64,000 nt of DNA, from the NCBI GenBank assembly GCA_001779095.1, contig MFJD01000004.1, positions 173,031-237,030 on the forward strand, read 5' to 3'. Below are positions 16,865 to 56,625 of this stretch, one piece after another. A program made the position numbers and the translations under genes. The DNA is from Candidatus Gottesmanbacteria bacterium RBG_16_52_11. Its GTDB lineage: Bacteria > Patescibacteriota > Microgenomatia > UBA10105 > UBA927. Each line of letters opens with the position of its first letter. Position 1 is the stretch's first letter. Below the pieces are notes generated by a model that ran no database searches, was not told where the DNA came from, and was given only the letters and a program-made list of their open reading frames with translations.

Positions 16865-16947
16865 AATGACCTATAATTATACAATTTGTATTAAAATTAA
16901 TCAAATATTAAGACCTGTAGCGTAATTAGTACTTATTATTCTGTGGT

Positions 16948-17907
16948 ATGATTGTCTCCAGCACTGCCGGGTTTATGAAACAGACTGCCGTAGTAACCGG
17001 GGCATCGGGATTTGTCGGCTCCAATATCGTCAGGAGACTACTGACTGACGGTTACCGGGTACACGCACTGGTCCGTAAAGGCGGCGATCCCTGGCGGCTC
17101 GTCGGCCTTCGAAACAAACTGGTATTGCATGAGGGCGTGCTTGACAGTAAATCCAGGCTGACTGCGCTTATGCACAAAGTGCGGCCGCAGGCGGTTTTCC
17201 ACCTGGCAACATACGGATCCTACCCAACGCAGATTGACCTAAGCCGCGTCATCAGGGTAAATGTCAACGGAACCGCTAATCTCCTTGAAAGCACGCTCCG
17301 CGTGCCGTATACGCGGCTGATTGTCGCCGGCAGCTCTTCGGAATACGGGAAAAAGGACGTCCCGATGCGTGAGGATGACGCTGTCGATCCAAACAACATG
17401 TATGCGGCAGCTAAGACGGCAGCCACCACACTGGCCCGGACATTCGCCCGGGTTTACCGTAAACCGGTTACGATATTCCGGCTATTCAGCGTCTACGGGC
17501 CCGGTGAGGAAAAGGGGAGGCTGGTGCGCTCCGTCATCGAATCGGCACTGGCGGGTGAGCCGGTCAGGCTAGCCAGCGGCAGGGAAGCCCGGGACCTGAT
17601 ATATACGGCGGATATTGCCGACGCTTTCGTATATACGGCCGGTCTGAAGCGGCAGATACCTGACGGGGAAATTTTCAACATCGGAACCGGTGTCCAGACT
17701 ACCATCCGGGAACTGGCGCAGAAAGTCATCCGGTTAACCGGCAGCAAATCGGAAATCAAACTGAACGCTTATGCCGGCCGGTTGTGGGACGCCTACACCT
17801 GGAAAGCCGATACGGCCAAAACCCGCAGTGAAATCGGCTGGACTGCCACAACCGGCCTGACCGACGGACTGAAAAAAACCATAGACTGGTACCGTAGCCG
17901 GGTATGA
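16948..17907 (+). CDS. NAD-dependent sugar epimerase/dehydratase (SDR family)
   Basis: AVVTGASGFVGSNIVRRL is the Rossmann GxxGxxG, and YAAAK is the SDR YxxxK catalytic motif. An alternative ATG lies at 16975 (MKQTAVVTG). ATTATTCTG sits immediately upstream (16934-16942). Confidence 0.8.
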   Translation: MIVSSTAGFMKQTAVVTGASGFVGSNIVRRLLTDGYRVHALVRKGGDPWRLVGLRNKLVLHEGVLDSKSRLTALMHKVRPQAVFHLATYGSYPTQIDLSRVIRVNVNGTANLLESTLRVPYTRLIVAGSSSEYGKKDVPMREDDAVDPNNMYAAAKTAATTLARTFARVYRKPVTIFRLFSVYGPGEEKGRLVRSVIESALAGEPVRLASGREARDLIYTADIADAFVYTAGLKRQIPDGEIFNIGTGVQTTIRELAQKVIRLTGSKSEIKLNAYAGRLWDAYTWKADTAKTRSEIGWTATTGLTDGLKKTIDWYRSRV

Positions 17908-30850: not shown

Positions 30851-32368
30851 TCAGGAACCGGCGTTAATATTTTCCCCGGTACGCAGGAGTTTCAAACCTG
30901 CCGGATTAGCGTATAGCCAGAAGTTGTCGTTTTTTCCCCAGAAGTACACCGCCGGTGAATGGTGGATCAGGGTAAATCCTTCGGGATCGTTTTCCGGAAG
31001 CGGAAAATCCAACAGAAGAAGGAAAGGGCGGGATTTGGGAAATGCATTTTTTGCCAGACTTACAGCTACATCGGGCGGAAGTGCATCATTTATCCGTTTA
31101 TGTCGTGCATCGATAACGTTGAACGAACCGGCCCGTTGATACTCCGGATACCAGAATTGCCTGTCATTAAAATAGACCAGCACATCTATGGTCATATAAG
31201 CGTGATATGCGGCAATATCCCAGTTTTCAATTCTGTTCCGTTTAATAAAAGCAGCCATGTCTTTTCCGCCGGAAAACGGATAACGGTAATCATTCACATA
31301 CGAAAATCCCGTGTAAATCCAGGAGATACCCAGGAGGCAACTGAAAACAAAAAGGAATATATTCCAGGATATTCTACGGATCAAATCGCGGTGCTGATGT
31401 TTGCCGGTCATCCAAAGGAAAAATATTATGGATATTAACGTGAGACCATGATGCCGGTTGTATCCGGAATACACATAAACATTGATGTAATAAAAGTAAC
31501 CCCAGGTAACCAGCGCCATCAATGTCAGAGGAATATTGTGTATGAGAATTGGGATAAGAGTGGCCAAACAAATGACAGTTCCAATCCTGATTATTTGGGA
31601 AAAGTAAGGCAACTGAATAATGTCCGGTTTGTCAATCGGGAGTGAAGGGACGATGGATTGACGGAGTACTTTCGTAAACTGGGAAGATATGTCCTGTGGT
31701 TTTGCCCAATTCACCAGCTCGGGATTCGGGGTCAGAAGCGCGGCAGTGAATACACCCTGCGCAACCATCAGCGTCAGCACTGTAAAACGGGCGACATTGA
31801 ATTTCCCATACCGGTACATCTCAAATCCGTAAAGGACCGTCAGAAATCCCGCCGGAACCAAAGAGAAAATATTTGCCTGATACAGGAGTACGATCAGCAT
31901 TCCGTATAAAACGGGTTTATCGAACCGTCTGGGGTAGATGGCGGCGACTGATAACAGAAGTGCCCAGGTCAGGACATAATTGCGCTGAACGACAGCGTAC
32001 TCATATGCCAGGAGATACGAAAAAATAAGCAGGATCTTCACTGGCAGGGGAATATTCTTATTGACAAACAGCAGGAGCCAGATAGCGAATATCGCGATGC
32101 CCGCATGGATAATGCCCATGGTTTCAAACGGCAGACCGGCTTTGGCAAACGGAGACAGGATAACAAACCAGGTAATCGGCACGCCTTCATTGGGAACATT
32201 GGCGACCATTTCCGGAATCGATGCTTCCCTGGCCCACCTCCAGGGATGGGCTTCATCCCGCCAGGGCTCATGATGGGATATGCCGAAAAGTACCAATAAG
32301 GAATAAATGGCAAAAATGATAAAGAGTACAGCATTATTCTTCGGTATATATGGCCGCTTCATGTCCAT
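30851..32368 (-). CDS. 'HEPWRDEAHPW'-family polytopic membrane protein, paralog 1 (putative GT-C glycosyltransferase)
   Basis: 505 aa. The first loop is GISHHEPWRDEAHPWRWAREAS, which has a DE catalytic-loop-like motif as in GT-C enzymes. About 11 TM segments and a C-terminal soluble domain of about 150 aa (YPFSGGKDMAAFIKRN..FWYPEY). Paralogous to the 33513 and 35191 genes. Confidence 0.5.
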   Translation of the reverse strand: MDMKRPYIPKNNAVLFIIFAIYSLLVLFGISHHEPWRDEAHPWRWAREASIPEMVANVPNEGVPITWFVILSPFAKAGLPFETMGIIHAGIAIFAIWLLLFVNKNIPLPVKILLIFSYLLAYEYAVVQRNYVLTWALLLSVAAIYPRRFDKPVLYGMLIVLLYQANIFSLVPAGFLTVLYGFEMYRYGKFNVARFTVLTLMVAQGVFTAALLTPNPELVNWAKPQDISSQFTKVLRQSIVPSLPIDKPDIIQLPYFSQIIRIGTVICLATLIPILIHNIPLTLMALVTWGYFYYINVYVYSGYNRHHGLTLISIIFFLWMTGKHQHRDLIRRISWNIFLFVFSCLLGISWIYTGFSYVNDYRYPFSGGKDMAAFIKRNRIENWDIAAYHAYMTIDVLVYFNDRQFWYPEYQRAGSFNVIDARHKRINDALPPDVAVSLAKNAFPKSRPFLLLLDFPLPENDPEGFTLIHHSPAVYFWGKNDNFWLYANPAGLKLLRTGENINAGS

Positions 32369-32937
32369 GATTTGTGGTAAAGCCGGTTCAGAATAATTAC
32401 AGCATAACCGTTGAAATAGAGGGGGAGTGAGTTTTTTTTTATCATATAAGATTTATCCGATCCGGCAATAATTCCCGAAACGAGCATCCGGTTGATTCTT
32501 TTTCGGATAATCGTATCGGTATTATATGTTTTTAAAATCTGGGCAGCAGTTATTCCCTTGTATCCAGCATTGGCAATGACAGCCAATAGTCTGATTCGGA
32601 TGGCAGATTCAAGAAGTGCTCCGAAGACGACCAGCACATAGACTCCGATAATTAACGTGTAAAGAATCAGAGCACCGATAAGTATTATCAGCTGAGCAAA
32701 TAACGGATAATAGGCCGCAATCGTTATATATCGGAAGAAAGGGAAGTAGATCAGAATCGAAATAACTGACGAGGCGACATACAACATAATAGGCCATATG
32801 TATATTTTTTCCGGCGGCAAAAACCTGACTATTACCAGGTGAATAACATAGAAAATCGAGGAAAACGCCAAGGCGTTTAATACTATCAGCATATCTAGAG
32901 ATAAGTACATATCGGGTATCATCCGCTTGACCTCCAA
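32359..32937 (-). CDS. small membrane protein with C-terminal winged-helix-like domain (type B, 192 aa)
   Basis: Four or five N-terminal TM helices, then GITAAQILKTYNTDTIIRKRINRMLVSGIIAGSDKSYMIKKN (helix-turn-helix plus wing pattern). AT-rich. Paired with the 32919-33443 gene, and homologous in architecture to the 40152-40742 gene. Confidence 0.5.
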   Translation of the reverse strand: MEVKRMIPDMYLSLDMLIVLNALAFSSIFYVIHLVIVRFLPPEKIYIWPIMLYVASSVISILIYFPFFRYITIAAYYPLFAQLIILIGALILYTLIIGVYVLVVFGALLESAIRIRLLAVIANAGYKGITAAQILKTYNTDTIIRKRINRMLVSGIIAGSDKSYMIKKNSLPLYFNGYAVIILNRLYHKSWT

Positions 32938-33443
32938 CCGATGATTCTGCGATAGATTTCAATTAGGATATACAGGAATTTGCCTTTGGTCGAAACAAAA
33001 TAAGCATCTGATTTCCGGCCAACAAAACCCATGTGTATCAGGTCGTTGATCCGGTTAGTCACGAGTTCGGTATCTGAGAACAATTTTTTCAGTTCCTTTT
33101 CAGTAGCCCGTCCGCGCTTTACCAGGTAAAGATATATTTTTGCCGACGGGCTGTAATCGCCGTATACGGCGCTGCCGGAATAAAGGATATAAATGACAGA
33201 TATCACAACGTATATGACAGTAGCCGTCAGCGGTAACGGATACATCAGCAACGCCGCCCAACCTGAGTGACCCAAACGGGGTAAAGTATTAAGTACCATC
33301 CAGTTCAGTAGACCACCTGATATAAAAAACAGAAAAATACTCCGAGGCAGATAAATCCGGCCGGAAGCTGCTGCGTTGTGGATTAGGATATGTGCCCCGG
33401 CCACCAGGAGAAATATGGTGATACTTACAAAAATATCCAGCAT
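32919..33443 (-). CDS. small membrane protein with C-terminal winged-helix (MarR/ArsR-like) domain (type A, 174 aa)
   Basis: Three N-terminal TM helices, then SAKIYLYLVKRGRATEKELKKLFSDTELVTNRINDLIHMGFVGRKSDAYFVSTKGKFLY, a typical wHTH. Counterpart of the 39652-40155 gene. Confidence 0.55.
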   Translation of the reverse strand: MLDIFVSITIFLLVAGAHILIHNAAASGRIYLPRSIFLFFISGGLLNWMVLNTLPRLGHSGWAALLMYPLPLTATVIYVVISVIYILYSGSAVYGDYSPSAKIYLYLVKRGRATEKELKKLFSDTELVTNRINDLIHMGFVGRKSDAYFVSTKGKFLYILIEIYRRIIGWRSSG

Positions 33444-33512
33444 ATTCTGAAAATATTCGTTACTCTAACAGTGTATATGAACCACTATCCAATATGTTCC
33501 GAGGCAGTCAGT

Positions 33513-34982
33513 TCATAAGGCAATACCGCGGCCGTATAACCATAAATTTTCCGTTTCGTTCGACCAGAAGTATGTAGCACCCGATGTATGAAGCAGCGAA
33601 TATCCTGCGGATTCCTCATCCGGGAGGGGAAATGACAGAAGCAGTAATACCGGTTTTCCTGGCGGAAAAGCGCGGTCTATCCGTCGGAAGGCATCATACG
33701 TCGAGAGACTGAAAAATAGTGCGTGATACCGATTATCACTGGTATTATAGTATCCCTTCGCACCGAATTCGGGGTACCAAAACTGTTTGTTATTCAGGTA
33801 CGGCAGAACGGCCAGCCCGTGGGATGCAATATAAGCCACAGTATCATATTTATCCAGGTTATTCTGTTTCAGGTAGGTAGCCATATCCCGGGCACCGGAA
33901 GAAGCATAAGTATAGTCAGCACTGTATATATACTTCGTATACCCGAGGGAAACAGTAAATAATACTGCCAGACTGACGAGTAAAACACTACGAACAGCTT
34001 GTCTCACCGGGGTCAACGGCTTCTGGTCGATTCCGCCTAACCAGAAAAAAACAACAAGATATATCAGCAGCAGTCCGTGGTGCCGGATTGATCCTTTATG
34101 GACGTACAGATTAACATACAACCACCAGGAGACGGTAGAAACGCACAGGATAAAAATATGCGTATTCCTCCAGAGAAAAAGCAGAATACCAGGGATCAGT
34201 AGTGCAGTCAGAATAGTAATAATAGTATTAATTTCCGGGGATAGGAAAGGTGCTGCAGGGTGCTGGGGAAATGAAGGAACAATTGCGTTACGGATGATAA
34301 CCGGCAGCTCAAGTAATGGATTGTCGGGAGGGTAATTAATAATCCGAGCAGCACCGTTTCGGAGAGTCAGAAACGTAAAAGCGGCGCTGACCGATAAAAC
34401 CGCAACAGATAGGATAGTCCCTGGTGCCAGTAATTTTTTCCGTAAGATGTCAAAAACAAATAACATCATGAACACCCCTGCAGGAAGTATACTGAATGAG
34501 TTCGTCTGAAACAGCAAAGAGATAAGCAAACTGTAAAGGATGGGTTTAGTAAGCCTCTTATCATACAGGGCTGCGATGGCAAATGTGAGTAAAACAGTCA
34601 GTACATAATTTCTTGATATAACCGAGTATTCATATGCCATATAGTAGGTAAACGGGAATAGGATTTTCAGAAGCATCGGTAATTTCGCGAATCGGAGTAA
34701 TATGTAGACTGCGGTTATGGCAAGTCCCGCATGGATAAATGACATTGTCAGGTAAGGAAAGCCGGCAGGCGCGAAAGGCTTGAGGATCAAAAACCAAAGT
34801 ATCGGCGTGCCTTCATTCCGGATATCTTCTGAAACAATAATACCAAGCGGAGTCTCCCGGGCTTTCATCCAAGGATGTGCCTCGTCCCTCCAGGGTTCAT
34901 GGTACAGAACTCCGAAGATGATGAGGCTGGCGTATATAAACCAAATTGCCACGTACGGCAGAGTCTTCCGCGGAAATGACAT
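33513..34982 (-). CDS. 'HEPWRDEAHPW'-family polytopic membrane protein, paralog 2
   Basis: 489 aa with GVLYHEPWRDEAHPWMKARETP. Same architecture as the 30851 and 35191 genes. Confidence 0.5.
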   Translation of the reverse strand: MSFPRKTLPYVAIWFIYASLIIFGVLYHEPWRDEAHPWMKARETPLGIIVSEDIRNEGTPILWFLILKPFAPAGFPYLTMSFIHAGLAITAVYILLRFAKLPMLLKILFPFTYYMAYEYSVISRNYVLTVLLTFAIAALYDKRLTKPILYSLLISLLFQTNSFSILPAGVFMMLFVFDILRKKLLAPGTILSVAVLSVSAAFTFLTLRNGAARIINYPPDNPLLELPVIIRNAIVPSFPQHPAAPFLSPEINTIITILTALLIPGILLFLWRNTHIFILCVSTVSWWLYVNLYVHKGSIRHHGLLLIYLVVFFWLGGIDQKPLTPVRQAVRSVLLVSLAVLFTVSLGYTKYIYSADYTYASSGARDMATYLKQNNLDKYDTVAYIASHGLAVLPYLNNKQFWYPEFGAKGYYNTSDNRYHALFFSLSTYDAFRRIDRAFPPGKPVLLLLSFPLPDEESAGYSLLHTSGATYFWSNETENLWLYGRGIAL

Positions 34983-35190
34983 ACCTGTGCCAGTATATAG
35001 AGAATCGAATCAGCGGGAAAGTGACTGTCTCCATTCACAAATGCTACTATCCGCTGACAGTGCATGACCGATAGTGTCAACGGCTTCAACTAATTCTGCT
35101 CCATTCCCACGGGTATTGAGTTTATCTACTGTCTGATCGGGGAGGTTTTGTCAGAACCTGAAAGGGCACGTAACACGTCGGAAGACTCCG

Positions 35191-36678
35191 TCAATTCACA
35201 TCCCCATAGGAATACAAAAAGAATTCCTCGGGCCAACTGGACCATATATAAGAGCCGCGGGATTCATACAGCAGCTCGTACCCATCGTAACCTCCCGGGA
35301 AAGTGTATTCGATCGGTGAGGACAGAAGGAGCAAATGGGGCTTCGTACCGAAAGTTGCTTTTATCCTAACCAATGCATCGGCGGGTTTGAGCACATCCGC
35401 CGGTTTATGATACCGGACGTCGAATAAATTATAATATCCGGTTTTCCCGTATTCCGGATACCAGAACTGTTTATCCTTAAAATACGGTAATACGGCAATT
35501 CCGTGGGAACTGCGGTATGCAACTATATCCATATGCAGGAGATTACGAGTCACAATGAATTCCGCCGTATTTTTTGATCCTGAAAAATTGGAAGTATAGT
35601 CCTGGCTATAGAGATAAGCGGTATACGCCCATGAAATAACAAGGAGTATCGAGAGAGAAGTGAAGAAAATGGCTTTCACACCCGATTCAAATTTTGATTT
35701 CCCTGCCTGTACTGTTTCCGAAAACCACCATAAGAAAATAATATAGACCTGAAACAGACCATGGTGTCTGGTATTTCCCGTATGGATAAATGCATTAATA
35801 AGGAGAAGCCATCCAAGACTTGCTGCTGTGATGAGGAGAGCTGACCCGTTCCGTAATACTTTCACAAAAAGAGCAATGAAAAGTATTGCCGTAATAATTG
35901 ATATGGCACCGTCCATTGATTGCACATCAAGGTTCAGGGGACGGTAATGGTCAAACGAGGGGATGAACGCGTTTCGGAGTATAACTGGTATTTGTTCCAG
36001 AGGATATTTGGGTATATCCGGATTTATTGAATATGCCGGGTCGGGTATTAGCATGAAGAATGTAATCAAGGCACTGGCGAACATTATGGATAAAGCTGCC
36101 AGGCGTTGCGGTGATAGTAAACGGCTTCTCATTAATTGAAAGCCGTTAAGTACCATTAATACACCTGCGGGTACGATACTGTAGAGATTCGTCTGGAACA
36201 GGAGGGCAACCAGTGTTGCATAGCGCAGGGGTCTATCGAACCGTAGGGCATGCAAAGAAGCAATGGCGAACAGAAGCACAACTGTAAGTACGTAATTCCT
36301 GGCAATAATTGAGTACTCATACGCGAAAAAATAGGAAAAAAGCATCAATACCTTGACCACCGAGGGAAATTTACCGTACTTCAGGAGCAAAAAAGCAAAC
36401 GTAATCGCGATGACACCATGGAGAAAATTCATCGTCTGATACGGAAATCCGAATTTGGCAAACGGCACCAGCATCATAAACCAGAGAACCGGAGTGCCTT
36501 CGTATTTGGCGTTATCGATGATAGTTGGAATGGAATCCTGACGTGCCATCATCCAGGCATGTGCCTCGTCCCTCCAGGGTTCATGATGAAATACTCCGAA
36601 GAGTATCAGCGCAATGTAAAGCAGAAAAACAATAGTTAATAACGTTTGTTTGCGGATCAGAACCGGTATAAGCCTCAT
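35191..36678 (-). CDS. 'HEPWRDEAHPW'-family polytopic membrane protein, paralog 3
   Basis: 495 aa with GVFHHEPWRDEAHAWMMARQDS and a C-terminal FWYPEYGKTGYYN block shared with paralogs 1 and 2. Confidence 0.5.
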   Translation of the reverse strand: MRLIPVLIRKQTLLTIVFLLYIALILFGVFHHEPWRDEAHAWMMARQDSIPTIIDNAKYEGTPVLWFMMLVPFAKFGFPYQTMNFLHGVIAITFAFLLLKYGKFPSVVKVLMLFSYFFAYEYSIIARNYVLTVVLLFAIASLHALRFDRPLRYATLVALLFQTNLYSIVPAGVLMVLNGFQLMRSRLLSPQRLAALSIMFASALITFFMLIPDPAYSINPDIPKYPLEQIPVILRNAFIPSFDHYRPLNLDVQSMDGAISIITAILFIALFVKVLRNGSALLITAASLGWLLLINAFIHTGNTRHHGLFQVYIIFLWWFSETVQAGKSKFESGVKAIFFTSLSILLVISWAYTAYLYSQDYTSNFSGSKNTAEFIVTRNLLHMDIVAYRSSHGIAVLPYFKDKQFWYPEYGKTGYYNLFDVRYHKPADVLKPADALVRIKATFGTKPHLLLLSSPIEYTFPGGYDGYELLYESRGSYIWSSWPEEFFLYSYGDVN

Positions 36679-36774
36679 GGTACTTCCGGTATGGAAACTT
36701 CGATTTCCCTTAAAGTCATGATTATACTAACATATAGGATTATGACAGAGAGGAATTGAATTCCATATATACTT

Positions 36775-37577: not shown

Positions 37578-38282
37578 ATGACCAGAAATCCCGGCGTCAG
37601 TATTGTCGTCATGGCGTATAACGAGGAACAGAACCTCGGTCCTACTATCGACGGGATCATGCGGGAAGTCCCCAAGGCAACCCGGAATTATGAAATCATA
37701 ATCGTCGAAGACGGCAGCACCGACGGGACGCTTGCAGTGGCAAAACAATATGCCCGGAGAAACCGTCGCATCAGGATAGTCCGGCACCGGATAAATTTCG
37801 GATTCGGAACTTCGTTTAAGGACGGTGTTGCCGCCGCGGAAAAAAAATACGTAATCGGTTTCCCCGGTGATAACGACACGTCACCGGTGTCCCTGAGACA
37901 GATTATCGGGCGCGCAAATGACCGGACAGTCGTTATTTCCTATCCAATCGACTGGAAACAGCGTTCCCTGGCGCGGCACATTATTTCCAGAAGCGTCGTG
38001 ATCCTGTTTAACCTCCTGTTTGGGATGCGACTCCGGTATTATACCGGACAGTTCCTGTGCCGGACTGGCGAACTGCAGAGGATGAATTTAAAGTCCAAAG
38101 GATTTGCCGTATACGCCGAAGCCAAAGTCCGGTTCCGGTATATGGGGATGAAATTTGAAGAAATACCGTTTGAGCATATCGGCCGGAAATTCGGTACCAC
38201 CAAAGCGATATCGTTCAGAAGCCTCTTAGAGACTCTGGAAACGATCGGAATACTCTTAACCGATATTTTTTTCAGAAAGTAA
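37578..38282 (+). CDS. GT2 family glycosyltransferase (DPM1/GtrB-like), paralog of 41787-42539
   Basis: VSIVVMAYNEEQNLGPTIDGIMREVP..IIVEDGSTDGT. About 60% identical to the 41787 gene product. Confidence 0.75.
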   Translation: MTRNPGVSIVVMAYNEEQNLGPTIDGIMREVPKATRNYEIIIVEDGSTDGTLAVAKQYARRNRRIRIVRHRINFGFGTSFKDGVAAAEKKYVIGFPGDNDTSPVSLRQIIGRANDRTVVISYPIDWKQRSLARHIISRSVVILFNLLFGMRLRYYTGQFLCRTGELQRMNLKSKGFAVYAEAKVRFRYMGMKFEEIPFEHIGRKFGTTKAISFRSLLETLETIGILLTDIFFRK

Positions 38283-38373
38283 TTCCTTAATTATTCGAAC
38301 AGACAGATGTGGGATTTCCCGGTAAGAATAGATTATTTTTACTTTAAAGTAGTATAGCTGTTTTTGAGTTGGT

Positions 38374-39579
38374 ATGAAATTATTGCGGACGCTTTTACTA
38401 ACAACAAAAGCTTATGATCCACTGTTGGCTTTACGTGGTTATTCAATTATTCTGATTGTCTGGTGGCACGTCTATTCATATTACCCAGTATATGCTTTTC
38501 ATAATGCCAGCCCTAACTACTGGTTACTATCATCAAGCCCATATGTAGGAGTCTGGACGTTTTTTATACTTTCGGGCTACTTAATCGGAAAGGGTTTTTT
38601 TGCCGGAAGATATACATTATCACCCCGAAATCTAATCCGTTTTTATATACATCGGTTAATGAAGATTGCGCCTTTATACTACCTGACAATAATATATATC
38701 TATTTTGTTCATATAATTCCCTATGGATATACCGAAACCAAACTTGCTCCATTTTTTTTCTTTAATGCAGCCAATCTGATTAATGACAGGTATTTGGGAT
38801 ATCTCTGGTTTGTATCGGTAGTGATTCAGCTTTATATCCTGTCTCCGCTAATCTATCTTGTGAACCGTATGATCCGGTTATTTCGAGTACCTGTATACGT
38901 ACCGTGGTTAATCATATTGGTATATTTTTTACTAATTCCGTTCACCTTTTCCATGCCATATTTACTTCAGAACAGGATGTATTATGATATCACTTTCTAT
39001 TCTTCCGTAGCAGTTAATTTAAGCTTCTTTCTTATCGGATTTTTCATAAATATACTATTTACGAATAAAAACAGTAGTGAGCAACAGGAAAGAATTACAG
39101 GTCGCCCGGCAGTAAAAAAAGTGATGGAAATAGGAGCCAACGTAAGTCTCGTGATACTATATATTATTTCCTCTTATGTTACCGAAAAATTTCTAATCGA
39201 TTATAATTCTAATCTTTTTAATATTATGTTCATTTTGCCTATTTTAACCGTAAGCATAGTCATATATTTCATAGTCACATCAGAGGGTGAAAACCATAAG
39301 AGAAACCGACACAGACAGATACAAGCTAATCACCGGACAATAAATATATTTGAAAAAGTCGGTCAATATTCCTATGGAGTATATTTGATTCACTACCTGG
39401 TTATTTATAGGCTTAAGTATAATTGCCATGCCAACTGTACAATTGCGGATTTACTTTATAAGCAATTACTAGTGTTCGGATGGAGCATGATCATAACAGT
39501 TATTATATACACGATTGCTGGAACTCTGAGAAAACGGATAATCCGAATCAAGCTGAATCCGTTTAAGTATTTACTGTGA
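38374..39579 (+). CDS. acyltransferase family 3 (membrane O-acyltransferase, OafA/WecH-like)
   Basis: LRGYSIILIVWWHV is the acyltransferase-3 N-terminal signature (RG..ILLVV..H). About 10 TM segments. The gene is strongly AT-rich compared with its flanks. Confidence 0.65.
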   Translation: MKLLRTLLLTTKAYDPLLALRGYSIILIVWWHVYSYYPVYAFHNASPNYWLLSSSPYVGVWTFFILSGYLIGKGFFAGRYTLSPRNLIRFYIHRLMKIAPLYYLTIIYIYFVHIIPYGYTETKLAPFFFFNAANLINDRYLGYLWFVSVVIQLYILSPLIYLVNRMIRLFRVPVYVPWLIILVYFLLIPFTFSMPYLLQNRMYYDITFYSSVAVNLSFFLIGFFINILFTNKNSSEQQERITGRPAVKKVMEIGANVSLVILYIISSYVTEKFLIDYNSNLFNIMFILPILTVSIVIYFIVTSEGENHKRNRHRQIQANHRTINIFEKVGQYSYGVYLIHYLVIYRLKYNCHANCTIADLLYKQLLVFGWSMIITVIIYTIAGTLRKRIIRIKLNPFKYLL

Positions 39580-39651: not shown

Positions 39652-40155
39652 ATGATTAGCGTACTTGCCAGCATCCTACTGTTTATTGCAACTCTAGTGA
39701 TTCATATTATGGTCAGGCGTCCCAATGCCCGGAGTATCGGAATCGGAAAGGTGGTAGCGGATTTTGCGGTTGCCTGTATCCTAGCGGCAGTGGCAATTGT
39801 GGCACTTGGGGAATGGTTCAGGGACATCACGCCACCGCTGCCGCTGACCGGAATTGCGATATACGGATTTGCGGCTTTTTCGTATGTGTCTTTTTCCGCT
39901 AGCCCGTTTCTGGGGGATGAAAGCCCTTCGTCCGTAATCGTACTTTTGGCGAGGGAGAAGGGCAGTATGACGCTTGACGATGTATTATCCGAATTCCCGG
40001 ACCGGTCGATTGTCGACAAGCGGATTGCGGATCTGATCAGTACCGGCTGGATAAAAAGGACCCGGAAGGGACTGGTGGCAACCGGGACAGGCCGGATTAT
40101 CGCTGCAGCGTTTGGTACATACCGGCGGTTACTGGGATTAGGGGAGACGGGATGA
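39652..40155 (+). CDS. small membrane protein with C-terminal winged-helix domain (type A, 167 aa)
   Basis: Three TM helices, then SVIVLLAREKGSMTLDDVLSEFPDRSIVDKRIADLISTGWIKRTRKGLVATGTGRII (wHTH). A 4-nt overlap with the next gene. Confidence 0.55.
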   Translation: MISVLASILLFIATLVIHIMVRRPNARSIGIGKVVADFAVACILAAVAIVALGEWFRDITPPLPLTGIAIYGFAAFSYVSFSASPFLGDESPSSVIVLLAREKGSMTLDDVLSEFPDRSIVDKRIADLISTGWIKRTRKGLVATGTGRIIAAAFGTYRRLLGLGETG

Positions 40156-40742
40156 ATATTGACCGGCTGATAATAATCCAGGCGATAACCAGCTCAGCCG
40201 CAATGATGGCGCTGCAGACGTTCGTAATGTCCGGGAAATACAAACAGGCAATCCTCAGGAGCCTTATGGCTGCATTCGGATACGCCACAATTTGCCATTA
40301 CCTGATATCCGCGGCAGTTCTAGCGTATTTACTAAACAGCGGACCGGTGCCGGATTTGTTACCGCTTTATGCTTATCCGGTAATATCATTCATTCTCTTC
40401 GGACTGGTCTGTTTTTCCGTTGTCCTGACGGTTTTCGGCCTCACAGTTACGTCACTCCGGATCCATATCCTGACCGAAATAGCTGATGCAGGAGAACCCG
40501 GAATCGCAGAGACTGCACTTGAGAAGAAATATTCCAAGCGGGAAGTCATGGTTGTGCGGCTGATCCGGCTGACCGAATCCGGCGAACTTGTGAATCGGGG
40601 CCGGCGGTATTTCCCGGTTTACCACCGCTCCTACTTTCTGCTGCATACATTTATCCTGATGTTATACAATCGGCTGTATAATCTGCCCGGGTATGCCCGG
40701 TATTGGAAGAGCGTGGGAGCGAAGTTATTGACGGGAAAATAA
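40152..40742 (+). CDS. small membrane protein with C-terminal winged-helix-like domain (type B, 196 aa)
   Basis: Four TM helices, then IAETALEKKYSKREVMVVRLIRLTESGELVNRGRRYFPV. Counterpart of the 32359-32937 gene. Confidence 0.5.
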   Translation: MNIDRLIIIQAITSSAAMMALQTFVMSGKYKQAILRSLMAAFGYATICHYLISAAVLAYLLNSGPVPDLLPLYAYPVISFILFGLVCFSVVLTVFGLTVTSLRIHILTEIADAGEPGIAETALEKKYSKREVMVVRLIRLTESGELVNRGRRYFPVYHRSYFLLHTFILMLYNRLYNLPGYARYWKSVGAKLLTGK

Positions 40743-40800
40743 TTATTCTGATTATTCTAATTAACCTAATTATTCTAAGCATCCCACAATTTATTTACCG
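40742..40800 (+). promoter_or_regulatory. ATTATTCTAA motif array (3 copies) immediately upstream of epimerase gene
   Basis: attattctgATTATTCTAAttaacctaATTATTCTAAgc...tttattt lies 7 nt before the ATG at 40807. Related arrays occur at 42521-42567 and 46453-46500, with single copies at 16934 and 38291. Confidence 0.45.
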
Positions 40801-40806
40801 GATTTT

Positions 40807-41790
40807 ATGAACGTACTGGTTACCGGCGCGGGGGGTTTCATCGGCAGTCACATGGTGGATCACTTACTGGAAAAGGGCCACAGTGTTACCGGCTTGGATA
40901 TATTTTCCCGGGGTAAGGAAGAGCATCTACCGTCGAAACAGTATGGAAACCTGCTCCGGCTGATCCAGGCAGACGTGTCTGACCGCACGGCGCTACGGGA
41001 GAAATATTTCCGGGGCGTCGACTGGGTGTTTCACTTCGCCGGCCGCTCCAGTAACGTCAAGTCGCTCGAGAATCCGCCGGAGTACCATGCCGTCAATGCC
41101 ACCGGTACGCTGAACATGCTGATTGCTGCCCATAAGGCTAAGGTGAAACGGTTCGTCTACGCGGCATCGTATTCGTGTTACGGCCAGCCACGAAAGTTTC
41201 CTACCCCGGAAACGGCGCTACTCAAGCCGGAATTCCCGTATGCCCTGACTAAGCTGGCAGGCGAACGCTATACACTGCACTGGCATCGGGCATTCGGATT
41301 GCCGACGATATCCCTGAGGATGACCAGCGTTTATGGGCCGAAAATCCGGACCGGTGGGAACTTCGGGCCAGTAGTCTCACTTTTTGTCGGGCAGAAAACG
41401 GACAGGAAGCCGTTTACAGTAGCCGGTGACGGCAGCCAGAGCCGGGATTTCGTGTATATCGATGACGTGGTTGAAGCGTTTCTGGCTGCTGCCCGGTCGG
41501 ATGTTGCCGGGGAAGTATTTAACGTCGGCAGCGGCCGGTCAGTCAGCCTCAATCGACTGGTGGAACTGCTAGGCGGTCCGGTGACATATGTCTCCAGAAG
41601 GCCGGGAGAAGTCAATAAAACTCTGGCGGATATAAAGAAAATTAAAAAATATTTGGGGTGGACTCCAAAGGTACGTTTTAACCACGGAATCAGAAGGGTG
41701 CTTGAAAGTGCAGGACAAACGGTGAAGCCCGGATTTAATGTCAGAACAATCCGTCCGTCAACAAACAGGCGGAAAGGCGGACACGTATGA
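40807..41790 (+). CDS. NAD-dependent sugar epimerase/dehydratase
   Basis: LVTGAGGFIGSHMVDHL, YALTK and SVYGPK motifs identify the family. About 55% identical to the 26732 gene product. Confidence 0.8.
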   Translation: MNVLVTGAGGFIGSHMVDHLLEKGHSVTGLDIFSRGKEEHLPSKQYGNLLRLIQADVSDRTALREKYFRGVDWVFHFAGRSSNVKSLENPPEYHAVNATGTLNMLIAAHKAKVKRFVYAASYSCYGQPRKFPTPETALLKPEFPYALTKLAGERYTLHWHRAFGLPTISLRMTSVYGPKIRTGGNFGPVVSLFVGQKTDRKPFTVAGDGSQSRDFVYIDDVVEAFLAAARSDVAGEVFNVGSGRSVSLNRLVELLGGPVTYVSRRPGEVNKTLADIKKIKKYLGWTPKVRFNHGIRRVLESAGQTVKPGFNVRTIRPSTNRRKGGHV

Positions 41791-42539
41791 AGAAGGTTAG
41801 TAAATTGAGCAGGGCGAAGACAGGAAAAACCGGTACCGGTATCATCGTGATGGCATACAACGAAGAAAAGAATCTGGGTCCGGCCCTGGACGGTCTGTTG
41901 CGGGAAGTCCCCAAAGTTACCGATGACTTCGAGATACTGGTCATAGACGACGGATCGGATGACTCAACCGGCAATGTTGCCGATAAGTACGGCCGGAAAA
42001 GCCGGCATATCCGGGTGGTCCACCACCGGGAAAACCGGGGATTCGGCCGTTCTTTCCGCAGTGGTGTCAGCCTGACCCGGAAGCGGTACGTGGTGGGATT
42101 CCCCGGTGATAACGATACATCACCCGCATCCCTGGCGCAGCTAGTCAGGCGGGCAAACGACCGCACGGTCGTGACCTGTTATCCGACGGACCTCAGTAAC
42201 CGTTCGGCATTCCGCCATCTGATATCCAAGTCGTTCGTGGTGCTGATGAACGCTGTTTTCAGAATGAACCTGAAATACTTCAACGGGTCATTCATATACC
42301 TCACCGAAGCGGTTAAAAACCTGAATCTTAAGTCAGACGGATTTGCCATATACGCCGAAGCCAAAGTCCGGCTGCGGCATCTGGGATATCCTTTTGAGGA
42401 AATTCCGTTCATTTATACGGGCAGAAAGCACGGTACGTCCAAAGCAGTAACCGGCAAAAGCGTCCGGGAGACTCTGGAAACGATCATTACTTTAGTGAAG
42501 GATATATATCTTAAAAAAAGAATAAATTATTCTAATTAA
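41787..42539 (+). CDS. GT2 family glycosyltransferase (DPM1/GtrB-like)
   Basis: GIIVMAYNEEKNLGPALDGLLREVP..LVIDDGSDDST. The C-terminal 6 codons (RINYSN) are encoded by the ATTATTCTAATTAA repeat motif. Confidence 0.75.
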   Translation: MKKVSKLSRAKTGKTGTGIIVMAYNEEKNLGPALDGLLREVPKVTDDFEILVIDDGSDDSTGNVADKYGRKSRHIRVVHHRENRGFGRSFRSGVSLTRKRYVVGFPGDNDTSPASLAQLVRRANDRTVVTCYPTDLSNRSAFRHLISKSFVVLMNAVFRMNLKYFNGSFIYLTEAVKNLNLKSDGFAIYAEAKVRLRHLGYPFEEIPFIYTGRKHGTSKAVTGKSVRETLETIITLVKDIYLKKRINYSN

Positions 42540-42567
42540 CCTAATTGACCTGATTATTCTAAAAAAG
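42521..42567 (+). promoter_or_regulatory. ATTATTCTAA motif array (2 copies) upstream of epimerase gene
   Basis: aataaATTATTCTAAttaacctaattgacctgATTATTCTAAaaaag lies 4-19 nt before the ATG(s) at 42572/42587. Confidence 0.4.
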
Positions 42568-42571
42568 AAGT

Positions 42572-43600
42572 ATGGCTAAAATAAATATGAAAAGGACAGT
42601 GCTGGTAACCGGAGCCGGAGGCTTTATCGGCAGCCATCTGGTCGACAGGCTATACGCCGACGGACATGATGTGACCGGTATCGGTAACTTTGCCGGGGGT
42701 TCCGATGAGCATCTGGCAGGTAAAACCGACCGGTCACGGATCAGATTCATTGAGGCCGATATCACTGACAGCCGGCAGCTGAAGGCTGAATATTTCCACG
42801 GTACCGACTGGGTATTTCATTTGGCAGCGCGTTCGGGGAATGCCAAGTCTTTGGCAGAACCTTTTGCATTCCATGAAACCAATGTCAGCGGAACGGTCAA
42901 TGTACTCGAAGCCGCGCGCAAAGCAAACGTAAAAAAGCTTATTTACGCTGCGTCATCCACCTGCTACGGCAATGCCCGGTGCCCGACGCCGGAAACGGCA
43001 CCGGTTGCACCCGTGTCACCCTACGGACTGACGAAGTTCCTGGGTGAGGAGTACGTCATGCACTGGGGCCAGGTTTTCCGGCTGCCGGTCGTCAGCCTCC
43101 GGCTTTACTACGTTTACGGACCGAAAATCAGGCCCGGCGGTTCATACGGAGCATTAGTAACCATGTTTCTTAACCAGCTCCTGACTGAAGGACATGTGAC
43201 CCTCAGCGGCGACGGAAGTCAGAAACGTGACTTTACGTACGTCGCCGATGCCGTTGACGCCCTGGTAACCGCTGCGCGGTCTTCCATATTCGGGGAAATT
43301 TTCAACGCCGGCAGCGGTCAAGTTTCGGACCTGAAAAAACTTGCCGGTCTGTTAGGCGGCAGGATAGTGCATGCCAAGCCGCTGTCCGGTGAAATAATGT
43401 CAGCCTACCCGGATCTCCATAAAATCAGGAGAATCCTGAAATGGAAACCAAAGACTGATATCATAACCGGAATTGCAATGGTTCTGGCCAGCCGGGATAT
43501 GTGGGAGAAAAATCCCGGTAACGCGCCGGACCGGATGCGTGACAATCTTAAAAATCGTCAGAGGAACAGCAGGATCAGAAGATTAAAAATTAATGTATGA
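42572..43600 (+). CDS. NAD-dependent sugar epimerase/dehydratase
   Basis: LVTGAGGFIGSHLVDRL, YGLTK and YVYGPK motifs identify the family. An alternative ATG at 42587 would begin MKRTVLVTG. Confidence 0.8.
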   Translation: MAKINMKRTVLVTGAGGFIGSHLVDRLYADGHDVTGIGNFAGGSDEHLAGKTDRSRIRFIEADITDSRQLKAEYFHGTDWVFHLAARSGNAKSLAEPFAFHETNVSGTVNVLEAARKANVKKLIYAASSTCYGNARCPTPETAPVAPVSPYGLTKFLGEEYVMHWGQVFRLPVVSLRLYYVYGPKIRPGGSYGALVTMFLNQLLTEGHVTLSGDGSQKRDFTYVADAVDALVTAARSSIFGEIFNAGSGQVSDLKKLAGLLGGRIVHAKPLSGEIMSAYPDLHKIRRILKWKPKTDIITGIAMVLASRDMWEKNPGNAPDRMRDNLKNRQRNSRIRRLKINV

Positions 43601-46452: not shown

Positions 46453-46500
46453 CCAATTAATCTAATTGTTCTAAACAGGGAAATTATTCTAATTTAAATC
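46453..46500 (+). promoter_or_regulatory. ATTATTCTAA-related motif array upstream of epimerase gene
   Basis: atccaattaatctaattgttctaaacagggaaATTATTCTAAtttaaatc lies 10 nt before the ATG at 46510. Confidence 0.4.
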
Positions 46501-46509
46501 ATTAATGGG

Positions 46510-47565
46510 ATGACAGACTCAGGGAAAAAGGTATCAAGAGAGGGATCCATAAAGACGGTCCTGGTGACCGGCGGCGGAGGATATGTCGGGGCTGTATTGG
46601 TGCCGAAACTGCTGGCCGCAGGGTACCGGGTGAGAGTGCTTGACTGGTTTATTTACGGTGAAGACGTCTTTGGTAAATACGGTAAGGATCCGAAACTGAC
46701 TATACTCCGGGGAGACTTACGGGACCGGAAATCAGTGGAAAAAGCTCTGAAAGGCGCCGATGCCGTCATCCATCTGGCATGTATATCCAATGATCCCAGT
46801 TTCGAACTCGATCCGGCTCTTGGCAGGACAGTGAATTACGATGCGACCGCACTTCTCACCGACTTGTCCTGCGACGAAGGTGTAACGCGTTTCGTTTTTG
46901 CCTCCTCATCGAGCGTCTACGGGGTCAAAACCGAATCCGACGTCACCGAGGACCTGCCGCTTAAACCGCTCACCGATTACTCTAAATACAAGGCGCTCTC
47001 GGAGGAATACATATTAAAAAAAGGCAGCCGGGATTTTACCGTGCTGATCCTGCGGCCGGCTACGGTCTGCGGCTATTCCCCGCGGATGCGGCTGGATCTG
47101 ACCGTGAATATCCTGACCATCAATGCCCTGATTAACAACCGGATAACGGTATTCGGCGGCTCGCAGCTGCGGCCCAACATCCACATCGGCGACATGACCG
47201 ACCTCTACGTCAAAACCATGGAGTTCCCCGGGGAAAAAATTGCCGGAAAGATTTATAATGCCGGTTACGAGAACATGAAGGTATTGGATATTGCGCGCAT
47301 GGTCAAAAAAGTCCTGGGAAAAAGGGATATAGAAATATCCGTCAAACCGACGGACGACCTGCGGTCCTACCACATCAATTCGGACAAAATCAGGCGGGAG
47401 CTGGGATTTGCCCCCCGGCACACCATCCGGGAAGCCATATCCGATATTAAAAGCGCCTACGAATCGGGAAAGCTGCCGGACCCCACGACGGATATCAGAT
47501 ATGTAAACATCAAAACCATGAAAGCCCTGTCCGGAAAGCTTGCGGGTAAATCCGGGTATGCCTAA
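46510..47565 (+). CDS. NAD-dependent sugar-nucleotide epimerase (candidate heptose 6-epimerase role)
   Basis: VLVTGGGGYVGAVLVPKL and YSKYK (YxxxK) motifs identify the family. 351 aa. Located between the HldE-like and GmhA-like genes. Confidence 0.75.
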   Translation: MTDSGKKVSREGSIKTVLVTGGGGYVGAVLVPKLLAAGYRVRVLDWFIYGEDVFGKYGKDPKLTILRGDLRDRKSVEKALKGADAVIHLACISNDPSFELDPALGRTVNYDATALLTDLSCDEGVTRFVFASSSSVYGVKTESDVTEDLPLKPLTDYSKYKALSEEYILKKGSRDFTVLILRPATVCGYSPRMRLDLTVNILTINALINNRITVFGGSQLRPNIHIGDMTDLYVKTMEFPGEKIAGKIYNAGYENMKVLDIARMVKKVLGKRDIEISVKPTDDLRSYHINSDKIRRELGFAPRHTIREAISDIKSAYESGKLPDPTTDIRYVNIKTMKALSGKLAGKSGYA

Positions 47566-56315: not shown

Positions 56316-56625
56316 ACCCTTTTTTCGTTGCTTGCTCAAATAACATACTCGATTTCTTTGCTCGTCCAAAGAAATCGGGGAAAGAAAGGACGCCCCGGGT
56401 GAAATTTTTCCGGGATTTCTAATCCTCACTCTGGCTGGGACAGAGAGGATTTATCAGATCCGAATATACAGTTGGTATGGACTTCCCAAGTATTAGGTAT
56501 AGTACTGTGAACAACTAGCCAGCCTCCGTTCGGAAAGGAATCCGCTGAAAAATTCCAACGGGGATTATTATTAAAGGTATGATGTATAATCCTTCTCGGA
56601 AAATCTTCAACGGGGAAAATCTAGT
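56316..56625. repeat. 310-bp structured intergenic region (repeat family B), homologous to 12791-13030
   Basis: Contains hairpin atttctttg-ctcgtc-caaagaaat (56352-56375), where the stem is conserved and the loop differs from copy A. Also the conserved block gacgccccgggtgaaatttttccggg...ctcactctggctgggacaga, and two copies of the CAGCCTCCGTTCGG...CAACGGGG motif. The second copy carries the exact 18-mer GGAAAATCTTCAACGGGG found at about 13014, ending 10 nt before the ATG at 56626. Confidence 0.65.

What the first reader, a model, noticed from the sequence alone, without database searches (positions are those of the whole stretch)
39652..40800. Second copy of the membrane-wHTH pair sits directly upstream of the ATTATTCTAA array and an epimerase operon
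In the plus-strand copy of the module, the type B gene ends at 40742, which is exactly where the triple ATTATTCT(A/G)A array begins, 7 nt before the epimerase ATG at 40807. This arrangement suggests autoregulation or control of the downstream operon. The module lies immediately after the AT-rich (likely acquired) acyltransferase gene.
Basis: inference. Interest (0 to 1): 0.5.

Follow-up and report, generated by a model that had tools for sequence, protein, structure and literature searches.

The report
Repeat element marking sugar-epimerase gene starts
A 36-base element made of four 9-base repeats sits in front of several sugar-nucleotide epimerase genes in an uncultured (CPR) bacterium, and it lies next to the pair of membrane-anchored winged-helix proteins only because that pair normally sits just upstream of such a gene.

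Summary
Genes A (39652-40155) and B (40152-40742) are distant paralogs: each has three membrane helices plus a cytoplasmic MarR/PadR-like winged helix. They belong to an uncharacterised family with at least 671 representative clusters. In every related locus recovered, A and B are adjacent inside glycosylation operons, often in the order GT2-A-B-SDR.

The "triple" repeat is a 4 x 9-nt array (40742-40778). It ends 28 nt before the epimerase ATG, not 7. Two more 4 x 9 arrays (42526-42562, 46456-46492) and one single unit (16935-16943) also lie just upstream of SDR epimerase/dehydratase genes. That covers 4 of the 6 SDR genes in the window, from at least three subfamilies. No other gene has a non-coding copy (Fisher p about 4e-5).

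In relatives, B and the SDR gene are 4-10 nt apart with no array. So the array is a lineage-specific element tied to SDR genes, and its position next to B follows from conserved gene order.

My best guess is a cis-acting expression signal, such as an internal promoter or operator, recognised by an unknown factor. Binding by A/B is not excluded, since they are the only HTH proteins in the 64 kb, but nothing supports it. The acyltransferase gene does look like an inserted foreign gene (GC 34.5%).

The parts
39652..40155 (+). Type A gene: 167 aa, three membrane helices plus a cytoplasmic winged helix and a C-terminal helix
40152..40742 (+). Type B gene: 196 aa, distant paralog of A with the same architecture; ATGA overlap with A
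   Evidence: ORF. hhalign A family vs B family: probability 98%, E 1e-13 over 147 columns. B lies next to A in every locus recovered where the sequence past A is held.
40742..40778 (+). Array 1: ATTATTCTG ATTATTCTA ATTAACCTA ATTATTCTA A; starts on the last base of B's stop codon; 28 nt before the SDR1 ATG
40807..41790 (+). SDR1, NAD-dependent epimerase/dehydratase
   Evidence: Pfam PF01370, E 4e-58
42526..42562 (+). Array 2: ATTATTCTA ATTAACCTA ATTGACCTG ATTATTCTA A; overlaps the last codons and stop of GT2b; 9 nt before the SDR2 ATG
42572..43600 (+). SDR2, epimerase/dehydratase, 50% identical to SDR1
46456..46492 (+). Array 3: ATTAATCTA ATTGTTCTA AACAGGGAA ATTATTCTA A; 17 nt before the SDR3 ATG; follows the HldE-like gene
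46510..47565 (+). SDR3, epimerase/dehydratase of a different subfamily (27% identity to SDR1)
16935..16943 (+). Single unit ATTATTCTG, 4 nt before the ATG of a fourth SDR gene (16948-17907); overlaps a TATTAT -10-like hexamer placed as for a leaderless transcript
32359..33443 (-). First copy of the pair (A' 32919-33443, B' 32359-32937), followed by a 505-aa membrane protein; no array
37578..38282 (+). GT2a: ArnC/GtrB-like polyprenyl-phosphate glycosyltransferase core without the C-terminal membrane hairpin; the usual upstream neighbour of A in relatives
38374..39579 (+). Acyltransferase_3 gene, GC 34.5%, inserted into the GT2-A junction
38290..38299 (+). One-mismatch unit ATTATTCGAA, 8 nt after the GT2a stop

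Best explanation
Two separate things sit side by side here.

(1) The pair. A and B are an anciently duplicated, translationally coupled pair of small inner-membrane proteins. Each has three membrane helices followed directly by a strongly basic cytoplasmic MarR/PadR-like winged helix. They are a fixed internal component of a glycosylation module. That module comprises a polyprenyl-phosphate GT2 that lacks its own membrane anchor, then A, then B, then an SDR sugar-nucleotide epimerase, plus GT-C-type transferases and methyltransferases. It is found in many uncultured bacteria.

(2) The array. The repeat is a genome-specific 36-37-nt element of four 9-nt units. The last unit, ATTATTCTA, is invariant; the third unit is variable. 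It has been placed, always in the gene's orientation, 4-28 nt upstream of the start codons of SDR genes from at least three subfamilies. It widens junctions that are 0-10 nt in relatives.

The array lies next to B only because an SDR gene normally follows B.

Inferred mechanism: the element is a cis-acting expression signal that lets SDR genes be expressed or controlled separately from the genes upstream. I favour an internal promoter or operator. Each unit carries a -10-like TATTCT/AATTAT hexamer, and this genome has almost no Shine-Dalgarno sequences and many -10-like hexamers 5-9 nt before start codons. The factor that recognises the element is unknown.

Shown: the anatomy, the statistics, the synteny and the fold. 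Inferred: that the element is functional, that it acts at the DNA level, and what binds it.
For: Array statistics: 8 exact ATTATTCTRA against 0.2 expected. The tandem pattern ATTNNNCTRATTNNNCTR is found only at the three arrays.

SDR association:
- The window has 6 SDR genes.
- Non-coding copies precede 4 of them and none of about 50 other genes. Fisher p is 4e-5, or 2e-4 if the coding-embedded copy before the 505-aa gene is counted.
- The four SDRs share only 25-32% identity, apart from one 50% pair, and their DNA is not alignable. So the shared element is not left over from gene duplication.

Synteny:
- GT2-A-B-SDR in L006 and L008, and A-B-SDR in L007, with B-to-SDR gaps of 4, 10 and 9 nt.
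- HldE and the SDR overlap in L008, against 69 nt plus array 3 here.
- No tandem array was found in L001, L003 or L005, and no ATTATTCTRA array in L001-L005.

Pair:
- The domain has a mean net charge of +6.9 across 68 members.
- A and B are homologous.
- A-B adjacency holds in all 12 loci where the sequence past A is held: the two window copies plus L001-L003 and L005-L011.

Genome style: 4 of 54 genes have an SD-like word. -10-like hexamers peak 5-9 nt before starts (8 against about 1 expected). The unit before SDR 16948 overlaps such a hexamer.
Against: - No transcription data exist.
- None of the arrays has a convincing -35/-10 pair. The consensus scan gives only one weak 9/12 match, at 40728-40755.
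- With TATTCT as the -10, the implied leaders would be 0-24 nt and mostly lack an SD.
- The distance from the element to the ATG varies from 4 to 28 nt.
- The sample is one 64-kb window of one genome, so the SDR association could weaken genome-wide.
- Two SDR genes (26732, 29210) lack the element.
- The element could act in RNA instead, since it probably lies inside operon transcripts. No terminator is predicted between B and SDR1.
Confidence: 0.45

Rival explanations
1. First reader's model. The A/B heterodimer is a membrane-tethered transcription factor. Its winged helices bind the 9-bp repeats and control the epimerase genes and the rest of the operon, perhaps in response to lipid-linked sugar intermediates sensed in the membrane.
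For: - The domains are strongly basic, +6.9 on average, with an invariant Arg in the recognition helix.
- No other HTH, sigma or NusG-like protein was found among the ORFs of the 64-kb island.
- All arrays lie within the same glycosylation island as the two pairs.
Against: - The pair family occurs widely without any such array. In relatives A-B-SDR is one tight operon with 4-10 nt junctions.
- The second pair, A'/B', has no array.
- Two arrays and the single unit are far from either pair.
- Direct 9-bp repeats do not suit a pseudo-twofold winged-helix dimer.
- The winged helix starts about 5 residues after the third membrane helix, which leaves little room for DNA.
- A position in the middle of the operon between enzymes, with translational coupling, is more typical of subunits than of regulators.
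Confidence: 0.12
2. The array acts in RNA. It is transcribed as part of the operon and serves one of three roles: a G-poor, A/U-rich landing site for ribosomes (via protein S1) in a genome that lacks Shine-Dalgarno sequences; a site for an RNA-binding protein or RNase; or a Rho loading site (UC dinucleotides every 9 nt) that sets polarity on the SDR genes.
For: - Strict co-orientation with the downstream gene.
- Location within 4-28 nt of start codons, partly overlapping the upstream coding sequence and stop codon.
- No terminator is predicted upstream.
- 50 of 54 genes lack an SD-like word.
- The arrays are G-poor (1-4 G in 37 nt).
Against: - Predicted unpaired probability of the arrays (0.44-0.47) equals the background (0.44).
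- A general need for unstructured RNA would not conserve an exact 9-10-mer in front of unrelated SDR genes.
- No Rfam family matches.
- The unit before SDR 16948 lies in a divergent promoter region, not inside an operon.
Confidence: 0.22
3. The arrays have no function of their own. They are slippage-generated minisatellites, recombination or insertion scars left when SDR-containing gene cassettes were shuffled, or a small repeat family that happens to occupy intergenic gaps.
For: - The arrays flank modules: SDR1-GT2b lies between arrays 1 and 2, and SDR2 through HldE between arrays 2 and 3.
- The island shows clear gene insertion (the acyltransferase) and other tandem-repeat regions, such as the 8-nt arrays at 13034-13350.
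- The arrays are absent from relatives.
Against: - All three arrays have exactly four units with the same pattern of conservation: the outer units are conserved and the third is free.
- All have the same orientation and the same kind of downstream gene.
- A fourth SDR gene carries the unit in a different context.
- The arrays have no inverted repeats or target duplications typical of mobile elements.
Confidence: 0.15
4. About the pair only. A/B are not regulators. They are membrane subunits of the glycosylation machinery: an anchor and/or flippase partner for the anchor-less polyprenyl-phosphate GT2. The parallels are DPM2/DPM3 for human DPM1, Rv3632 for PpgS, and GtrA or ArnE/ArnF.
For: - GT2a aligns with ArnC residues 10-223 of 322-327 and lacks ArnC's C-terminal membrane helices.
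- A GT2 of 231-250 aa lies directly beside the pair in L001, L003, L005, L006, L008, L009 and L010, and one inserted gene away in the window.
- No GtrA, Wzx, ABC or SMR-type flippase was recognised anywhere in the island.
- Paired, overlapping paralogous small membrane genes are typical of heterodimeric membrane subunits.
Against: - There is no sequence or fold relation to GtrA, SMR or DPM2/3.
- The cytoplasmic domain looks like a DNA-binding winged helix and is highly basic.
- Three helices per subunit is unusual for a flippase.
Confidence: 0.4

Closest known systems
MarR / PadR / ArsR-type winged-helix transcription regulators
   Different: No family HMM is matched above threshold. The domain is fused directly to three N-terminal membrane helices. 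The genes come as a paralogous pair inside biosynthetic operons. No palindromic operator is evident.
Membrane-bound one-component regulators (ToxR, CadC, TcpP; BcrR)
   Same: A DNA-binding-type domain tethered to the membrane in one polypeptide. BcrR shows that such proteins can sense lipid-carrier-related signals (from my own knowledge).
   Different: ToxR and CadC have an N-terminal OmpR-type domain, one membrane helix and a periplasmic sensor. BcrR has an N-terminal XRE-type HTH and four C-terminal helices. Here the order is reversed, there is no extracytoplasmic domain, and the proteins form a two-gene pair.
Small membrane partners of polyprenyl-phosphate glycosyltransferases (GtrA; ArnE/ArnF; DPM2/DPM3; Rv3632 with PpgS)
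   Same: The genomic role looks alike: small membrane proteins encoded beside an ArnC/GtrB/DPM1-like GT2 and GT-C transferases. The GT2 lacks its own membrane helices, as human DPM1 and PpgS do (family facts from my own knowledge).
   Different: There is no sequence or fold similarity. Each protein has three helices plus a winged helix, rather than four helices (GtrA, ArnE/F) or two helices plus a coiled coil (DPM3).
JUMPstart/ops element upstream of polysaccharide gene clusters (RfaH-dependent)
   Same: A short (about 39 nt), oriented, conserved non-coding element found just upstream of polysaccharide-related genes within transcribed regions.
   Different: The ops core GGCGGTAG is absent from the arrays. 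No NusG/RfaH paralog is present in the window. The element here is internally repetitive (4 x 9 nt), precedes individual SDR genes rather than whole clusters, and is seen in only one genome.
Operators made of contiguous short direct repeats (omega repressor heptads of pSM19035; ParR-type centromere repeats)
   Same: Arrays of contiguous short direct repeats placed next to promoters and bound cooperatively by small DNA-binding proteins (from my own knowledge).
   Different: Those are plasmid partition or copy-control systems bound by ribbon-helix-helix proteins. No such protein is found here, and the unit length and sequence are different.

Membership tests
MarR/PadR/ArsR winged-helix regulators | Winged helix-turn-helix fold | tested here: met
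MarR/PadR/ArsR winged-helix regulators | Sequence match to the family profile above the curated threshold | tested here: not met
   Pfam and NCBIfam give only sub-threshold hits: HTH_45, DUF1803, TrmB, Sta1 and Lrs14, with E 1e-4 to 0.08.
MarR/PadR/ArsR winged-helix regulators | Sequence-specific DNA binding to an operator, usually an inverted repeat | not testable with these tools
   Only indirect evidence: a basic domain. The nearby arrays are direct repeats, not inverted ones.
ToxR/CadC-type membrane regulators | N-terminal OmpR-type winged helix, single membrane helix, periplasmic sensor domain | tested here: not met
   The model shows three N-terminal membrane helices followed by the winged helix, with no extracytoplasmic domain.
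GtrA / SMR-type (ArnE/ArnF) lipid-sugar flippases | Match to GtrA (PF04138) or SMR/EamA profiles; four membrane helices | tested here: not met
   No such Pfam hit at E up to 0.1 for A, B, A' or B', nor at E up to 0.01 for 68 family members. Each protein has three helices.
GtrA / DPM2-DPM3-like partners of polyprenyl-phosphate GT2 | Encoded beside an ArnC/GtrB/DPM1-like GT2 and GT-C transferases; the GT2 lacks its own anchor | tested here: met
   Synteny in the loci listed under the accessory-subunit rival. GT2a aligns with ArnC 10-223 and stops before ArnC's membrane helices.
GtrA / DPM2-DPM3-like partners of polyprenyl-phosphate GT2 | Physical complex with, or functional requirement for, the GT2 | not testable with these tools
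   No multimer prediction or experiment was available.
JUMPstart/ops-RfaH antitermination | ops core GGCGGTAG in the element and a NusG/RfaH paralog | tested here: not met
   One chance GGCGGTAG at 21470, none in the arrays. No NusG/KOW protein among the window ORFs scanned.
Sigma-70 promoter | -35 and -10 hexamers at 16-18 bp spacing upstream of a transcription start | tested here: inconclusive
   Only one weak 9/12 match overlaps array 1 (40728-40755). The units contain 4/6 -10-like hexamers. The unit before 16948 overlaps a 5/6 TATTAT hexamer 8 nt before the ATG. No transcription-start data.
Known structured RNA families (Rfam) | Match to a covariance model | tested here: not met
   No hit at the gathering score in the whole window. 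Nothing at the arrays with E up to 1.
Phase-variable simple sequence repeats | Perfect tandem units whose copy number varies between cells or strains | tested here: inconclusive
   The units are imperfect and all three arrays have exactly four units, which argues against. No population data were available.

The most novel reading that the evidence does not exclude
A and B represent a new class of membrane-integral, heterodimeric winged-helix transcription factors. Embedded in the lipid-carrier glycosylation machinery, they sense polyprenyl-phosphate-sugar status. In this genome they bind the 9-bp repeat arrays to match nucleotide-sugar (SDR) enzyme supply to membrane demand, directly coupling lipid-linked glycan assembly to transcription.
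Probability: 0.1. Interest if true: 0.75.

Novelty: new variant of a known kind. Interest (0 to 1): 0.45.

Why it matters
CPR bacteria have very few recognisable regulators, and almost nothing is known about how they control gene expression.

- An oriented repeat element that marks functionally related genes (SDR sugar-nucleotide enzymes) of different ancestry would be a rare, testable example of a regulon signal in this group.
- The A/B family is widespread (at least 671 clusters at 50% identity), unannotated, and always paired inside glycosylation operons.
- If A/B are regulators, they show a new way to wire membrane glycan assembly to transcription.
- If A/B are subunits, they may be the missing anchor or flippase for anchor-less polyprenyl-phosphate glycosyltransferases.

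Either answer would improve annotation of many cell-surface glycosylation clusters in uncultured bacteria.

Tried and rejected
- **Word-indexed protein searches.** Searches for A, B and the family alignment returned essentially only the query itself. The family was found only by the full HMMER scan.
- **Locus scans.** The genome and metagenome scans depend on one exact peptide and gave only 1 and 3 loci.
- **Extending beyond the window.** Four attempts through exact-protein look-up failed.
- **Structure of B.** The 2-sequence run gave an unusable model, pLDDT 52. The afdb50 fold library was unavailable.
- **RNA explanations.** No Rfam match, no tRNA, and the arrays are not predicted to be more unpaired than background.
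- **ops/RfaH idea.** Rejected (no NusG paralog).
- **Remnant of gene duplication.** Rejected, because the SDR genes are 25-50% identical and their DNA does not align.
- **CRISPR-like or mobile-element reading.** Rejected: no spacers, no inverted ends.
- **In-frame stop-codon idea.** The array overlaps upstream reading frames in different phases in arrays 1 and 2, so this was dropped.
- **Literature searches.** Nothing found on this family or element.
Full report
**Source.** ORF 39652-40155 is 100% identical to hypothetical protein A2Z33_04020 of Candidatus Gottesmanbacteria bacterium RBG_16_52_11. This is a CPR/Microgenomates genome bin with a contig of 266,770 bp. ORF 40152-40742 is A2Z33_04025.

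**Checking the observation**
- The two ORFs exist and overlap by ATGA.
- They are paralogs of a minus-strand pair, A' 32919-33443 and B' 32359-32937 (27% identity, E 1e-19; 31% over 94 residues, E 8e-9).
- B's stop codon TAA occupies 40740-40742. The repeat starts on its last base.
- The repeat is four contiguous 9-nt units, not three: ATTATTCTG, ATTATTCTA, ATTAACCTA, ATTATTCTA, plus a final A (40742-40778). It ends 28 nt, not 7, before the ATG at 40807.
- ATTATTCTRA occurs 8 times in the window against 0.2 expected; no shuffle reached that count.
- The acyltransferase gene (Pfam Acyl_transf_3) has GC 34.5% and GC3 35.6%. Its neighbours have about 50-54% and 56-61%.
- That gene splits a GT2-to-A junction that is only 2-12 nt in relatives. 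The "likely acquired" remark therefore holds.

- The same four-unit architecture recurs at 42526-42562: ATTATTCTA ATTAACCTA ATTGACCTG ATTATTCTA A. It overlaps the last codons and stop of a GT2 gene and lies 9 nt before the ATG at 42572.
- It recurs again at 46456-46492: ATTAATCTA ATTGTTCTA AACAGGGAA ATTATTCTA A, 17 nt before the ATG at 46510.
- The tandem pattern ATTNNNCTRATTNNNCTR is found without mismatch only at these three places.
- A single unit, ATTATTCTG, lies at 16935-16943, 4 nt before the ATG at 16948.
- All four downstream genes are NAD-dependent epimerase/dehydratase (SDR) genes.
- The window has six SDR genes, and four carry the element. No other gene has a non-coding copy (Fisher p 4e-5; 2e-4 if the copy before the 505-aa membrane gene is counted).
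- The two exact copies at 38446 and 32388 (minus strand) are in-frame ATT ATT CTG (Ile-Ile-Leu) inside membrane-protein coding sequence. I treat them as chance.
- The four element-bearing SDRs are 25-32% identical to each other, apart from one 50% pair, and their DNA does not align. The shared upstream element is therefore not left over from gene duplication.

**The pair**
- A profile of A plus A', searched against 1.84 billion representative proteins, found 671 hits at E up to 1e-3 and 184 at E up to 1e-10. Nearly all the best 150 listed are 150-185 residues and most match over nearly their full length.
- The alignment shows three N-terminal hydrophobic helices with a conserved His. These are followed by the motifs PLPxT and SPxLGDESPSSKI, a winged-helix segment (FSDxxLIxKRLxDL with an invariant Arg), and a conserved C-terminal YRxxLGWxxxG.
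- None of 68 members matches a Pfam family above threshold. They give only weak winged-helix hits. NCBIfam likewise gives nothing.
- AlphaFold gives a confident model (pLDDT 92): helices 2-28, 31-55 and 64-86, then a three-helix winged helix with a beta hairpin, then a helix at 145-160.
- The cytoplasmic part has a mean net charge of +6.9 across the family.
- B could not be modelled well (pLDDT 52 from two sequences). However, profile-profile comparison shows B is homologous to A over 147 columns (probability 98%, E 1e-13). B therefore has the same three-helix plus winged-helix design.

**Genomic context**
A and B are adjacent in every locus recovered where the sequence past A is held:

| Locus | Gene order |
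|---|---|
| L001 | GT2, A, B, 541-aa membrane protein, methyltransferase |
| L005 | PMT_2 (opposite strand), A, B, GT2 (opposite strand) |
| L006 | GT2, A, B, SDR, PMT |
| L007 | dehydrogenase, A, B, SDR |
| L008 | GT2, A, B, SDR, HldE-like, SDR, SIS |
| L009 | membrane protein, A, B, GT2 |
| L010 | GT2, A, B |
| L011 | methyltransferase, A, B |

- The window has the L008 order, with extra genes inserted.
- The B-to-SDR gaps in L006, L007 and L008 are 4, 9 and 10 nt. HldE and its SDR overlap in L008. In the window the corresponding gaps are 64 and 69 nt and hold arrays 1 and 3.
- No tandem array turned up in L001, L003 or L005, and L001-L005 hold no ATTATTCTRA array; L006-L011 were not scanned for repeats.
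- The array is thus a lineage-specific addition at SDR gene starts. Its adjacency to B follows from the conserved order B-SDR.

**What the array does (inference)**
- The whole window is a glycosylation island. It holds many GT2, GT-C-like (PMT_2, YfhO-like), methyltransferase, SDR, split transketolase, HldE-like and SIS genes.
- No sigma factor, NusG paralog or conventional regulator is recognisable in it.
- Only 4 of 54 genes have a Shine-Dalgarno-like word. -10-like hexamers pile up 5-9 nt before start codons (8 against about 1 expected), which suggests frequent leaderless transcripts.
- The unit before SDR 16948 overlaps such a hexamer (TATTAT, 8 nt before the ATG). Every unit contains TATTCT or AATTAT, which match TATAAT at 4 of 6 positions, including A2 and T6.
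- I therefore favour a DNA-level expression signal (internal promoter and/or operator) that uncouples SDR genes from the genes upstream.
- Against this: there is no convincing -35 element. The consensus scan gives only one weak match. The distance to the ATG varies from 4 to 28 nt.
- An RNA-level role is the main rival: a ribosome landing site, a protein or RNase site, or Rho loading on evenly spaced UC dinucleotides. Predicted accessibility of the arrays is no higher than background, and no Rfam family matches.
- A neutral origin is less likely, because the four-unit pattern, the orientation and the type of downstream gene all repeat.

**What the pair does**
Two readings remain open.
- *Regulator.* The fold, the basic charge and the lack of any other HTH protein in the island favour a membrane-tethered regulator.
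- *Subunit.* Several points favour a structural partner, either anchor or flippase.
  - The pair sits in the middle of the operon, with translational coupling.
  - It is regularly associated with a GT2. That GT2 aligns with ArnC residues 10-223 but lacks ArnC's membrane helices.
  - No recognisable flippase is present in the island.
  - DPM2/DPM3, Rv3632, GtrA and ArnE/ArnF are functional parallels (from my own knowledge). There is no sequence or fold relation to them.
- I put the subunit reading at about 0.4, any regulator role at about 0.35, and specific binding of A/B to the arrays at about 0.12.

**Verdict.** The proposed causal link between the pair and the array is not supported. The array is an SDR-gene-associated element in one CPR genome. 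The pair is a member of a large, unannotated family built into glycosylation operons. Both are moderately interesting and experimentally tractable. Neither has a proven mechanism.

Noticed in passing
window 12790-13429: A 640-nt gene-free region upstream of a sulfotransferase gene holds four arrays of 8-nt tandem units, (A/T/G)ATAC(C/T)TA. Three of them are preceded by CGGCGGGG(T/A)TAATAC. There is also a 24-nt direct repeat (13006, 13236) with an inverted copy at 12865. The units share an ACCTA core with the degenerate units of the 9-nt arrays. No Rfam hit.
   Followed up: partly
window 38374-39579: The acyltransferase_3 gene has GC 34.5% and GC3 35.6%, far below its neighbours. It is inserted into a GT2-to-A junction that is 2-12 nt in related loci, so it is probably horizontally acquired.
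   Followed up: yes
window 30851-36678 (minus strand): Three paralogous membrane proteins of about 490-505 aa (38-42% identical, no Pfam hit) flank the A'/B' pair. This block has lower GC (40-46%) than the plus-strand cluster, so the second pair may be a xenolog rather than a local duplicate.
   Followed up: partly
whole window: Only 4 of 54 genes have a Shine-Dalgarno-like word, and -10-like hexamers peak 5-9 nt before start codons. This suggests that leaderless mRNAs are common in this genome.
   Followed up: partly
whole window: Words containing CCGG (CCGGCCGGA, TTCCGGAAA and others) are the most over-represented 8-10-mers.
   Followed up: no
window 36679-36774: The divergent intergenic region between the 495-aa membrane gene and a methyltransferase gene holds near-perfect inverted repeats (GTCATGATTA...GGATTATGAC and GGAATTGAATTCC). 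These are a possible operator. The region gave a spurious mir-44 hit in Rfam.
   Followed up: no
window 32333-32397 (minus strand mRNA): The unit AUUAUUCU upstream of the 505-aa gene's AUG and a perfectly complementary AGAAUAAU 28-35 nt inside the gene could form an 8-bp stem enclosing the start codon. This may be chance.
   Followed up: no
window 13013-13031 and about 56590-56610: The sequence CGGAAAATCTTCAACGGGG recurs upstream of the alcohol-dehydrogenase-like gene at 56626 and in the 13-kb repeat region.
   Followed up: no
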